A DNA stretch of 64,000 nucleotides from Anolis carolinensis (Eukaryota), in the NCBI RefSeq assembly GCF_035594765.1, contig NC_085842.1, positions 19,072,782 to 19,136,781 of the forward strand. Reading direction: 5' to 3'. Position 1 is the stretch's first letter. Every line of letters begins with the position of its first letter. Position numbers: made by a program. Of this stretch, positions 48,601 through 51,600 are shown piece after piece.

Positions 48601-51600
48601 TTTTTAAACTTTAATATAAGCTTTGCTTTTCAACTCCATTCACACAGGAGAAAGGCCATTGAAATGGTTGCAGTGTAAAAAGAGCTTCAATCAAAAGAAA
48701 CGCCTTATTCATCAGGCAACTCACAAAAGAGAAAGGCTGTGCAAATGCTTGCAATGTGGAAAGAGCTTCAGTCACAAGAATGTCCTTATTATTCATCAGG
48801 CAACTCACACAGGGGAGAAGCCATTTAAATGCTTGCAGTGTGGAAAGAGTTTCAGTCGCAAGCACGACCTTATTAGTCATCAAACAACTCACACAGTAGA
48901 GAAGCCATTTGAATGCCTGCAGTGTGAAAAGAGCTTCAGTCTAAAGGGAAGCCTTATTCGTCATCAGGCCACTCACACAGGAGAGAAACCATTCAAATGC
49001 TTGCAGTGTGAAAAGAGCTTCAGTCGGAAATCATACCTTATTCGTCATAAGGCATCTCACACAGGAGAGAAACCATTTAAATGCTTGCAGTGTAAAAAGG
49101 GCTTCAGTCAAAAGCAGCACCTTATTACTCATCAGGCAACTCACACAGGAGAGAAGCCATTTCAATGCTTTCAGTGTGAAAAGAGCTTCAGTCTAAAGGG
49201 AAACCTTATTAGTCATCAGGAAATTCACAAAGGAGTGAAGCCATTTCAATGCTTGCAGTGTAAAAAGTGCTTTAGGCGCAAGAACATTCTTATTAGTCAT
49301 CAGGCAACTCACACAGGAGAGAAGCCATTTCAATGCTTTAAGTGTGAAAAGAGCTTCAGTCTAAAGGGAAACCTTATTCGTCATCAGGCCACTCACACAG
49401 GAGAGAAGCCATTTAAATGCTTGCAGTGTGGAAAGAGCTTCAGTCGAAACTCACACCTTGTTTGCCATCAGGCAACTCACACAGGAGACAAGCCCTTTCA
49501 ATGTTTGCAGTGTGAAAATTGCTTCAGTCAAAAAAGCAGTCTTATACGTCACCAGGCAACTCACACAGGAGTGAAACCATTTCAGTGCTTGCAGTGTGAA
49601 AAGAGCTTCAGTCAAAAGAGCAACCTTATTATTCATCAGAAAACTCACACGGGAGAGAAGGCATTTAAATGCTTGCAGTGTGGAAAGAGCTTCAGTCGAA
49701 ACTCACACCTTGTTTGCCATCAGGCAACTCACAAGGGAGAGTAACCATTTAAATGCTTGCAATGTGAAAAGGCCTTCAGTCACAAGCACACCCTTATTGG
49801 TCATCAAGCAACTCACACAGGAGTAAAGCCTGTTAAAGGATATCAGTGTGAAAAGAGCTTCAGTCACAAGCACGTCCTTATTAGTCATCAGGCAACTCAC
49901 ACAGGAGAGGAGCCATTTAAATGCTCAGTGTGAAAAGAGCTTCAGTCGGAAATCACACCTTGTTTGTCATTAAGCAACTCAAGGCAGAGGAAAACTATCT
50001 GTTTTCCATCTGTCGGGGGTGCTTTGAATGCGATTTCTTGCTTCTTGGCAGGGGTTTGGACTGGACAGCCCATGAGGTCTCTTTCAACTCTACTATTCTA
50101 CTAGAGTGTGTAAAGATCTGCAGTTGAAACACAAGCCTTCTTTTTTAATTGTCAACCTATACGGAAGAAATGGGGTAAAGGGAAGATCATTTGTTTTACA
50201 TCAGAGTGGGCATGAATCTTTGTTATAGAAACACTAAGTTAAAAAGCAATGGCTTTTGGGGAAAATAATAATCTGACCAATATCTCATTAAGCATAACTA
50301 ATATTTTGAGAGCTAAAGGAAGGATATTTCAAGTTTTCTTTTAGCCATTCATGAACATTGGTTACTGCAAATATTTCCTGTCATGTATATTCAGGGTTAC
50401 TTTTGGACTTTACCTGGACATTGCAACACAATACTTCCATTCAGGTGGGGAAATCACCTCTCCCTATCCTTGGGGAAGAACCAGTTTCACCACCCTGCGC
50501 CTTTGATGAACAGGACTTCTCGCATCAGAAGGAATCTGCATGACTACAGCCAAACCCCAACCTCTGTCATTTTGCATAATTGTATTAATATATTATGTTT
50601 TGTTTCTCTGGGGCCTGGAATCACCAGCCCAGCCCTATTAATGGGCCATGTCATGTACATCTAATAAGACAATAGCATTCCTGGGTAGGGCCAGAAAATG
50701 CCCTCAATCACTTTGTTATTTTTCCTGTTCAGTAAAAGGAGCCCCATTCATCAATGCTTAATCATCCATTGTCCCAGCCCATGCTGGCCAGTGAGCCAAG
50801 CCCCTCTCTGTGACTGGTCAGAATTCAAGGCTTGGCTGCAGGCTATGTATAAAAAGGGCTCTGAAACTGTATTCTGTATGCTATCTACTTTATGAATGTA
50901 TCACTAGCTAACATCTTACCTGCAGATAATAACATTTTCCTTGGCTGAAAATCACCTTCTCTCCTTGCTTGCTGGCTAATTTCAGTTGGGCCTAATCTAT
51001 TTGCTCACCAAAGCAGGGACTCACTCAAAATGGGCAGCTCAGGCGGATCACTTGCCTGGGTTTCTGCCAACAGGCTTCTCCCTGGTCTCCCTGCCAGGGG
51101 TTGCCTCCTAAAATGGGGCCAACAAGTATCTTAGGCGATCCCTCGTAGCTCGAGGACGATTGTCTTCCATCCTTGGTGTCTTGGGGGTGGGTTCTTAAGT
51201 GGCTGAAGAGACCTATTCTTGACCCGCATATTCTCCCGCAGTGAGAACATCGGTTTCCAGGTGGAAGGCGGTCCCGGTCGGGGTTAGCTTGACGCTCCTT
51301 CCTCTTGGCATGTTTCTCCCTTAAGCCCTCTGTTCATGCCTCTTCGAACTCCGCAGCACTGCTGGTCACAGCTGACCTCCAATTAGAGCGCTCAAGGGCC
51401 AGGGCTTCCCAGTTCTCAGTGTCTATGCCACAGTTTTTAAGGTTGGCTTTGAGCCCATCTTTAAATCTCTTTTCCTGCCCACCAACATTCCGTTTCCTGT
51501 TCTTGAGTTCGGAGTAGAGTAGCTGCTTTGGGAGACGGTGATCGGGCATTCGGACAACGTGGCCAGTCCAGCGGAGTTGATGGCGTAGGAGCATCGCTTC

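What the first reader, a model, noticed from the sequence alone, without database searches (positions are those of the whole stretch)
49330..49744. Paralogs B and C differ mainly in the DNA-recognition helices of fingers 8-11, partly through intra-array conversion
Fingers 1-7 and the flanking introns are nearly identical. The -1/2/3/6 residues change from B to C: F8 LGNS to LGNR, F9 HHVR to RSHC, F10 ESSR to QSSR, F11 QVNR to QSNI. C 49374-49481 is a copy of the F11/F12 segment seen at B ~29840-29947, so a downstream finger was pasted three units upstream with finger number unchanged. This is PRDM9-like minisatellite evolution of binding specificity caught between young duplicates, consistent with the known KRAB-ZNF versus TE arms race.
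Basis: partly seen in the sequence, partly recalled or inferred. Interest (0 to 1): 0.66.

Follow-up and report, generated by a model that had tools for sequence, protein, structure and literature searches.

The report
Zinc-finger patch copied within young lizard paralog
Two recently duplicated lizard zinc-finger genes differ mostly because about 100 bases coding one finger were copied over another finger three positions upstream, a clean but ordinary example of how such genes change their DNA-reading parts.

Summary
The window is Anolis carolinensis DNA, not human. It holds a tandem ~19.8-kb repeat (copies A, B, C and the start of D), each copy a SCAN-KRAB-C2H2 gene. The B and C finger exons are both 374 codons. 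They differ at 36 of 1125 bases: 3 in the first 708 bases, 21 within a 98-bp stretch, 1 single change in finger 10, and 11 within a 43-bp stretch in finger 11.

C 49373-49481 is identical (109/109) to B 29839-29947, the finger-11 tail plus finger 12, lying 252 bp (three units) out of register. Informative sites read 22 recipient, 21 donor, 11 recipient, 1 donor, 32 recipient. Copy A as outgroup shows C is the derived copy. The three-unit offset follows an older three-unit duplication still visible in A.

The finger-11 patch is also derived in C, but no donor was found in the window or in annotated proteins.

The wider reading is only partly supported. Eight further amino-acid differences lie in the SCAN exon. 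Units are only ~79% alike, unlike my recollection of PRDM9. Point changes between A and B do not favour contact residues. The arms-race idea is untested. This is a known kind of event; interest is modest.

The parts
49373..49481 (+). Pasted tract in copy C (tail of finger 8 plus most of finger 9). It is at most 109 bp. The minimum is 98 bp (49379-49476), between the outermost donor-state sites.
   Evidence: Exact identity to B 29839-29947. The mosaic of informative sites reads 22R|21D|11R|1D|32R. The three-way alignment is printed.
29839..29947 (+). Donor-type segment in copy B: tail of finger 11, the linker and finger 12 up to its second histidine region.
   Evidence: 109/109 identity with the C tract, 252 bp out of register.
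49625..49733 (+). C's own F11-tail/F12 segment, the alternative donor. It now differs from the tract at 7 sites, all in its first 37 bases.
   Evidence: 7 mismatches in 108. Second pattern line.
49619..49661 (+). Second patch in C (finger 11 helix and linker): 11 differences from B in 43 bp. It gives V>S, R>I, A>K, P>A. The donor is unknown.
   Evidence: A agrees with B at 9 of the 11 sites. The best other match in the window has 8 mismatches in 47, both strands. The best annotated protein is 89% over 44 aa.
49529..49529 (+). Single G>C substitution, finger 10 position -1 (E to Q).
48620..49744 (+). Copy C finger exon frame (stop to stop, 374 codons): one degenerate finger, 12 intact fingers, TAA stop.
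   Evidence: Pfam zf-C2H2 and zf-H2C2_2.
28834..29958 (+). Copy B finger exon frame (374 codons). It keeps the ancestral order of fingers 6-11, equal to A13-A18.
13675..15636 (+). Copy A finger exon frame (653 codons, 23 units), used as outgroup. A15-A17 and A18-A20 form a three-unit higher-order repeat.
   Evidence: One search gives 6, 1 and 9 differences per 84-bp unit at offset 252. One search finds a 105-bp exact repeat at 15058/15310.
49745..49990 (+). Three decayed fingers after the shared TAA in copy C. The B counterpart is 29959-30200, with a further 1-bp deletion.
   Evidence: Read. TRF arrays run on to 49947 and 30194.
46208..46328 (+). KRAB-A exon of C (121 nt, AG/GT bounded, leaves phase 1). 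B is 26580-26700 and A is 11514-11634. B and C are identical here.
   Evidence: Pfam KRAB 3.7e-19 on the B frame. Sequences. 0/121 differences.
42785..43201 (+). SCAN exon of C. B is 22323-22739 and A is 7631-8047. B and C differ at 9 nt, giving 8 amino-acid changes.
   Evidence: Pfam SCAN. tblastn map. Counts.

Best explanation
After the ~19.8-kb unit carrying a SCAN-KRAB-C2H2 gene was duplicated into copies B and C, copy C underwent a non-reciprocal, templated copy event. This was either ectopic gene conversion or an equivalent double template switch.

The array paired three units (252 bp) out of register. Pairing was seeded by the similarity of the finger-8 and finger-11 heads, which descend from an older three-unit duplication. 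About 98-109 bp of finger-11 tail, linker and finger 12 then overwrote the finger-8 tail and finger 9.

Finger number stayed at 12. C now carries the RNSHLVC helix twice (F9 and F12) and has lost the HHVR helix.

A second, separate patch of 43 bp rewrote the finger-11 helix and linker in C. It was most likely copied from a paralog outside the window.

Shown: the mosaic, its polarity and the unchanged finger number.

Inferred: the molecular mechanism, the donor copy (B or C itself), that the finger exon is spliced to the KRAB exon, and that the binding site changes.
For: Evidence for the tract:
- 109/109 identity of C 49373-49481 with B 29839-29947, found nowhere else in the window.
- Clean mosaic of 87 informative sites, with recipient-state sites at 49372 and 49482 bounding the tract (alignment).
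- P(run) 1.9e-17 and Poisson 3e-23.

Evidence for polarity:
- In the tract A-B differ at 3 and A-C at 20 of 98. Outside it, within F8-F10, A-B differ at 8 and A-C at 9 of 154.
- B fingers 6-11 follow A13-A18 in order.
- In the tree of 46 units (unit 0 of each array left out), C9 joins B12/C12/A22 at 100/93 and B9 joins A16 at 100/90.

Evidence for the register:
- A15-A17 versus A18-A20 differ by 16 of 252.
- Self-identity of A peaks at offsets 3 and 7.
- The B11 head equals the A18 head (0 of 42).
- Exact blocks of 19 and 21 bp lie just left of the tract.

Evidence that these are real paralogs:
- The window has no N.
- At least four tandem copies are present, with B- and C-specific insertions.

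Evidence that the genes look intact:
- SCAN, two small exons and the KRAB exon are open in B and C.
- Splice sites are conserved in A, B and C.
Against: - Donor and recipient are only ~80% identical over 261 bp and differ at 21 of 98 sites in the tract. From memory, that is low for classical homologous gene conversion, so the mechanism may be template switching instead.
- C's present F11 tail does not match the tract at 7 sites. A strictly intra-array origin therefore needs the second patch to be later.
- No reads were available, so an assembly chimera cannot be excluded.
- No annotated protein at 90% or more to the B or C finger exon was found.
- The one annotated product of copy A that was found (P0143) ends after the KRAB exon without fingers. 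Use of the finger exon is therefore inferred only from the open frames.
- The nonsynonymous to synonymous count between A and B fingers is 17:9, so constraint is weak.
Confidence: 0.8

Rival explanations
1. Assembly artefact: the consensus of copy C was threaded through reads of the wrong repeat unit, giving a chimeric finger 8/9.
For: The array is a period-84 tandem repeat, which is hard to assemble. No read data could be examined. B and C are 99% alike outside the array, so reads could be mis-assigned.
Against: The tract is in frame and in register, and unit number is unchanged. It is bounded by 5-6 bp of shared sequence rather than by long exact repeats. The window has no gaps. The annotated relative lies on a 325-Mb contig, so the assembly is chromosome-scale. 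A collapse would normally change unit number.
Confidence: 0.07
2. The paste happened before B and C split, and B was later restored by in-register conversion from copy A. On this reading C keeps the older state.
For: A and B are alike in the tract (3 of 98). Conversion among the copies is plausible in this cluster.
Against: It needs two events instead of one. The A-B difference in the tract (3.1%) is no lower than in nine orthologous finger pairs (26 of 756 = 3.4%) or in the rest of F8-F10 (8 of 154). A conversion after the B/C split (0.4-0.8% divergence) predicts 0-1 differences.
Confidence: 0.05
3. Two successive unequal crossovers (a three-unit gain then a three-unit loss, or the reverse) rather than one conversion.
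For: Unit gain and loss clearly happens in this family. A has 23 units against 13, with hybrid fingers B4 (A4 head plus A11 tail) and B11.
Against: The two breakpoints would have to fall only ~100 bp apart and restore the exact register. One short tract explains the same pattern. The outcome cannot be told apart from conversion.
Confidence: 0.05
4. B and C are two haplotypes of one locus, wrongly placed in tandem, so the difference is allelic.
For: Divergence is only 0.78%.
Against: Copies A (90-95% alike) and D flank them in the same orientation. B and C differ by several large insertions, for example 806 bp only in B and 1.75 kb only in C. There is no gap between them.
Confidence: 0.03

Closest known systems
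Shifting of finger-coding units between closely related KRAB zinc-finger paralogs in mouse clusters (Kauzlaric et al. 2017, PMC5363842; abstract passage and section 7 read)
   Same: Young tandem paralogs whose flanks are nearly identical while the finger 'fingerprint' differs. The differences arise through duplication, deletion and re-use of finger units.
   Different: That work describes repeated triplets of contact residues across many genes. Here a single tract is resolved to the base, with polarity from an outgroup and unchanged finger number. It is also in a lizard SCAN-KRAB gene.
Short gene-conversion tracts among lineage-specific poly-zinc-finger paralogs found with GENECONV (Emerson and Thomas 2009, PMC2604467; passages read)
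   Same: Short conversion tracts among recently expanded poly-ZF paralogs.
   Different: They treated conversions as a nuisance to remove before testing for selection, and as read they concern aligned (in-register) paralogs. Here the copy is three units out of register. They report positive selection in most vertebrate expansions. Here contact codons show no excess of change (1/36 versus 16/216).
Finger gain and loss as the commonest path of divergence in primate KZNF genes (Nowick et al. 2011, PMC3126818; passages read)
   Same: Recombination among finger units changes the array. Copy A against B/C shows this, with 23 versus 13 units.
   Different: The B/C difference keeps the number of fingers and swaps the content.
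PRDM9 zinc-finger minisatellite (properties recalled, not tested by any search)
   Same: 84-bp units coding one finger each. Out-of-register recombination changes the predicted DNA target.
   Different: Units here are ~79% alike, not nearly identical. No SET domain was found in the exons scanned. There is no population evidence of hypervariability and no excess change at contact residues.
Lizard-specific expansion of SCAN-KRAB-ZNF genes (Liu et al. 2014, PMC3971581; passages read)
   Same: The window's genes have the SCAN + KRAB + C2H2 architecture. That paper counts 240 such models in Anolis carolinensis. The KRAB lacks the central leucine of 'MLE', as they describe.
   Different: That survey does not, in the passages read, describe events inside arrays. 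Its supplementary gene tables could not be opened.

Membership tests
C2H2 (Krueppel-type) poly-zinc-finger protein | Tandem C-x2-C ... H-x3-H fingers joined by TGEKP-like linkers | tested here: met
   Pfam zf-C2H2 8.8e-55 (B) and 3.9e-56 (C), and zf-H2C2_2 with 11 stretches each. There are 12 intact fingers per copy. The C F11-F12 linker reads TGEKA.
KRAB zinc-finger protein | KRAB-A box exon upstream of the finger exon on the same strand | tested here: met
   Pfam KRAB 3.7e-19, above its cut-off. The exon is bounded by AG and GT in A, B and C.
KRAB zinc-finger protein | KAP1/TRIM28-binding motif with central leucine ('MLE'; mammalian consensus recalled) | tested here: not met
   The sequence reads QIMEEN. 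Liu et al. 2014 state that the lizard consensus lacks this leucine and that KAP1 binding cannot be assumed.
SCAN-domain zinc-finger protein | SCAN domain at the N-terminus | tested here: met
   Pfam SCAN 1e-33 (B), 5e-32 (C), 3e-34 (A).
Ectopic (non-allelic) gene conversion | Contiguous tract identical to a non-allelic donor, flanked on both sides by recipient-state sites | tested here: met
Ectopic (non-allelic) gene conversion | Direction shown by an outgroup | tested here: met
   A-B 3 versus A-C 20 of 98. Unit tree.
Ectopic (non-allelic) gene conversion | Non-reciprocal: the donor is left unchanged | tested here: inconclusive
   B's F11/F12 is unchanged relative to the tract. C's own F11 tail differs at 7 sites and does not carry the displaced F8 tail.
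Ectopic (non-allelic) gene conversion | High donor-recipient similarity allowing homologous pairing (threshold recalled) | tested here: inconclusive
   About 80% over 261 bp, with exact blocks of 19 and 21 bp left of the tract.
PRDM9-like minisatellite array | Nearly identical 84-bp units (recalled) | tested here: not met
   Period 84, but 79% matches in B and C and 82% in A.
PRDM9-like minisatellite array | PR/SET domain in the same gene | tested here: not met
   Only SCAN, KRAB and finger families were found in the exons scanned. The annotated copy-A product P0143 carries only SCAN and KRAB.
PRDM9-like minisatellite array | Excess amino-acid change at DNA-contact positions | tested here: not met
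   1 of 36 contact codons versus 16 of 216 others in 9 A/B orthologous finger pairs. The sample is small.
PRDM9-like minisatellite array | Many array alleles within a population | not testable with these tools
   No reads or other individuals were available.

The most novel reading that the evidence does not exclude
In anole SCAN-KRAB-ZNF clusters the DNA-reading 'fingerprint' may change almost only by templated exchange of finger cassettes, while point change at contact residues is held back. The exchange would occur among units only ~80% alike, including copies from paralogs elsewhere in the genome and a recurrently spread RNSHLVC finger. That would be a recombination-driven diversification system rather than the mutation-plus-selection picture drawn from mammals.

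Hints:
- Two patches lie in C.
- Hybrid fingers B4 and B11 exist.
- A 105-bp exact repeat lies three units apart in A.
- A possible further patch lies in the SCAN exon.
- The RNSHLVC finger occurs twice in another A. carolinensis paralog, P0044.
- Only 1 of 36 contact codons changed by point mutation.
Probability: 0.12. Interest if true: 0.6.

Novelty: new member of a known kind. Interest (0 to 1): 0.3.

Why it matters
This is an unusually clean, base-resolved case of finger content being swapped without a change in finger number. It has an outgroup for polarity and young duplicates as the before and after states.

B and C form a natural pair for testing how replacing two adjacent fingers, and editing two more, shifts the target of a poly-zinc-finger protein. 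The setting is a reptile family whose KRAB may not even recruit KAP1.

It does not change what is known about how zinc-finger arrays evolve.

Tried and rejected
**Donor for the finger-11 patch inside the window.** Both strands were scanned with up to 12 mismatches. The best match had 8 mismatches in 47, so there is no donor.

**Donor among annotated proteins.** A region search with residues 311-354 of the C frame scored 22 candidates. The best was 89% identical and came from an unnamed source, which I did not fetch. The best named hit was 84%. Motif scans of the 120 and later 251 stored proteins found no 'GEKAFKC' and no 'SNLIIHQ'.

**Reciprocal swap (F8 tail moved to F11).** C's F11 tail does not carry the displaced F8 tail. 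This was read and rejected.

**Annotated B or C protein.** None at 90% or more to the finger exon among the best 120 of 7565 hits. None at 100% to the C SCAN exon. The best hit, at 95%, is copy A's own product.

**Selection at contact residues.** No excess was found. Left out of that count were unit 0, the hybrid fingers (A4/B4 and A18/B11) and A22/B12, which has a codon deletion.

**Point mutation as the origin of the 21 differences.** Rejected on the Poisson and run tests.

**The single donor-state site at 49529.** It is isolated among recipient-state sites and is taken as a separate substitution.

**A4's RKSHLVC helix as a copy of the decayed last finger.** A simpler reading is that A4 is ancestral and B4 is a deletion hybrid.

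**Not run or not available.**
- GENECONV itself is not installed. I used a run test on informative sites instead.
- No lizard DNA collection is on hand: genome contigs holds only bacteria and archaea and was not used.
- The spliced gene model was never joined. Each exon was searched and compared on its own.
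Full report
**What the window is.** The 64-kb window has no N. It is a tandem repeat of about 19.8 kb:
- Copy A lies at about 5000-17900 and is 90-95% identical to the others.
- Copy B lies at about 19400-39500.
- Copy C lies at about 39900-59000.
- Copy D begins at about 61800.

Each copy carries, on the + strand, a SCAN exon, two small exons, a KRAB-A exon and one long exon of C2H2 fingers (Pfam; exon map).

The NCBI protein 'zinc finger protein 202 isoform X2 [Anolis carolinensis]' (P0143) matches copy A exactly within exon bounds over four exons. 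I therefore take the window for green anole, not human.

Liu et al. 2014 count 240 SCAN-KRAB-ZNF models in this species (PMC3971581, passages). I searched and compared the gene model exon by exon and left the joined protein out.

**The observation.** The B and C finger frames (28834-29958 and 48620-49744) are both 374 codons. Each has a degenerate first unit, 12 intact fingers and a TAA stop in the linker after finger 12.

Without gaps the frames differ at 36 of 1125 bases:
- 3 in the first 708 bases
- 21 between B 29593 and 29690
- 1 at B 29743
- 11 between B 29833 and 29875

The intron upstream differs at 0.45%. The whole B/C repeat outside the finger frame differs at 0.78%. The two clusters are far beyond chance (Poisson 3e-23 and 1e-13).

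**The pasted tract.** C 49373-49481 equals B 29839-29947 at 109 of 109 bases. That string occurs nowhere else in the window.

There are 87 sites where the B orthologue (recipient) and B shifted by 252 bp (donor) differ. At these, C reads 22 recipient, 21 donor, 11 recipient, 1 donor, 32 recipient (alignment). The chance of such a run is 1.9e-17. The tract is therefore 98-109 bp long. It covers the tail of finger 8, the linker and finger 9 up to its last histidine region.

It accounts for 13 of the 18 amino-acid differences in fingers 8-11 and for 5 of the 8 at positions -1/2/3/6.

**Polarity.**
- Copy A has the order LGNS-RNIS-LGNS-HHVR-ESSR-QVN in A13-A18, as B does in fingers 6-11.
- In the tract, A and B differ at 3 of 98 sites and A and C at 20. 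Outside it the two counts are 8 and 9 of 154.
- I built a maximum-likelihood tree of 46 units, leaving out the degenerate unit 0 of each array. In it C9 groups with B12, C12 and A22 (100/93) and B9 groups with A16 (100/90). B and C units 1-7, 10 and 12 are identical or sisters.

C is therefore the derived copy.

**Why three units.** In copy A the blocks A15-A17 and A18-A20 differ at only 16 of 252 bases. A's self-identity peaks at offsets of 3 and 7 units. The head of B finger 11 equals the head of A18. Fingers 8 and 11 are therefore old duplicates. Their heads give exact blocks of 19 and 21 bp just left of the tract.

Pairing three units out of register is thus the natural misalignment. The copied stretch then ran on into finger 9/12, where donor and recipient are unlike.

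Overall donor-recipient identity is about 80%. From memory, that is low for classical conversion, so a double template switch during repair synthesis is an equally good mechanism. The result is the same.

**Which copy was the donor.** The tract matches B's finger-11 tail at all 7 sites where C's present finger-11 tail differs. There are two possibilities:
- B was the donor, by out-of-register exchange between paralogs.
- C's own array was the donor, and its finger 11 was altered later.

The data do not decide between them.

**The second patch.** C 49619-49661 differs from B at 11 of 43 bases, including two triple-base changes. It changes V>S, R>I, A>K and P>A in finger 11 and its linker. Copy A agrees with B at 9 of the 11 sites, so C is again derived.

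No donor exists in the window (best 8 mismatches in 47). None exists among annotated proteins either (best 89% of 44 residues, from an unnamed record that I did not fetch). Motif scans were also negative.

A copy from a paralog outside the window is the most likely origin, but this remains unexplained. The finger-10 E>Q change is a single substitution.

**Context in the family.** Copy A has 23 units against 13 in B and C. B finger 4 is the A4 head joined to the A11 tail. B finger 11 is the A18 head with another tail. These are the hybrids expected at 7-unit and 3-unit gains or losses. Copy A also has a 105-bp exact repeat three units apart. Recombination among units is therefore recurrent here.

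By contrast, point substitutions between nine clear A/B orthologous finger pairs changed 1 of 36 contact codons and 16 of 216 others (P 0.48). They split 17 nonsynonymous to 9 synonymous. Unit 0, the hybrid fingers and A22/B12 were left out of that count. This gives no sign of selection on contact residues and only weak constraint.

**Are the genes working?**
- All upstream exons are open in B and C.
- KRAB splice sites and two phase-compatible acceptors before the finger exon are conserved in A, B and C.
- All 12 fingers keep their zinc ligands.
- The three fingers after the shared stop have decayed.

Against this, no annotated protein contains the B or C finger exon. The annotated product of copy A also stops after the KRAB exon. 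Use of the finger exon is inferred.

**The wider interpretation.** 'Differ mainly in fingers 8-11' is true for 18 of 30 amino-acid differences. The SCAN exon has 8 amino-acid changes from 9 base differences, four of them within 20 bp.

'PRDM9-like minisatellite' fits only in the 84-bp unit and in the out-of-register exchange. Units are 79% alike. No SET domain was found.

The arms-race reading was not tested. The KRAB reads IMEEN, lacking the leucine that Liu et al. say is missing in lizards. They add that KAP1 binding cannot be assumed.

**Relation to what is known.** Three papers cover the general phenomenon:
- Short conversions among poly-ZF paralogs: Emerson and Thomas 2009, PMC2604467, passages read.
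- Finger duplication and deletion as a common path of divergence: Nowick et al. 2011, PMC3126818, passages read.
- 'Drifting and shifting' of finger arrays between close mouse paralogs: Kauzlaric et al. 2017, PMC5363842, section 7 read.

My three literature searches did not turn up a description of this anole locus. The supplementary gene tables of Liu et al. could not be opened and may list it.

**Verdict.** This is a real and tidy instance of a known process, resolved to the base with polarity. The PRDM9 and arms-race framing is unsupported. Novelty is low and interest is modest.

**Unchecked.** Reads, other individuals, the rest of the anole genome, expression and binding.

Noticed in passing
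B 22323-22739 versus C 42785-43201 (cluster at B 22407-22426): The SCAN exons of B and C differ at 9 of 417 bases (2.2%, against 0.78% background), and 8 of these change the amino acid. Four lie within 20 bp. Copy A agrees with C at four of B's states. B's R32 and Q35 also occur in other A. carolinensis paralogs (P0123, P0168), so this may be another small conversion patch.
   Followed up: partly
A 15634-15636, B 29956-29958, C 49742-49744 and the ~240 bp after each: All three copies share an in-frame TAA in the linker after the last intact finger. Three further fingers follow and have decayed: a lost cysteine, 1- and 2-bp deletions and a stop.
   Followed up: partly
A 13675-15636 versus B 28834-29958: Copy A has 23 units and B/C have 13. 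A shows higher-order repeats of 7 and 3 units. B fingers 4 and 11 are head/tail hybrids at the junctions.
   Followed up: yes
A 11635-11657 (after the KRAB exon); protein P0143: The annotated A. carolinensis product of copy A reads through the KRAB exon's donor site (…[10 protein letters not shown] stop) and has no fingers. A SCAN-KRAB-only isoform may therefore be made from these genes.
   Followed up: partly
C 56193-57943: An AT-rich (GC 0.30) 1.75-kb insertion is present in C and absent from B. It has open frames of 205 and 284 codons on the + strand that match no Pfam family above cut-off. It looks like a young retroelement insertion after the duplication.
   Followed up: partly
B 34747-34786 (C about 53760-53800): Eight B/C mismatches lie within 40 bp inside a non-LTR retrotransposon (reverse transcriptase and endonuclease frames on the - strand). 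This may be conversion between element copies or an alignment effect.
   Followed up: no
1214-1585, - strand: A further SCAN-domain exon lies on the opposite strand at the left edge of the window (Pfam 9e-37). It is 73% identical to copy A's SCAN, so it belongs to a more distant, inverted family member.
   Followed up: partly
60087-60757: GC-rich stretch with long open frames on both strands made of a repeated proline/glycine/arginine-rich motif. It lies between C and D and has no counterpart noticed between B and C.
   Followed up: no
Protein P0044 (A. carolinensis), residues 392 and 504: The RNSHLVC finger that was pasted in C also occurs twice, four fingers apart, in another annotated anole paralog.
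   Followed up: partly
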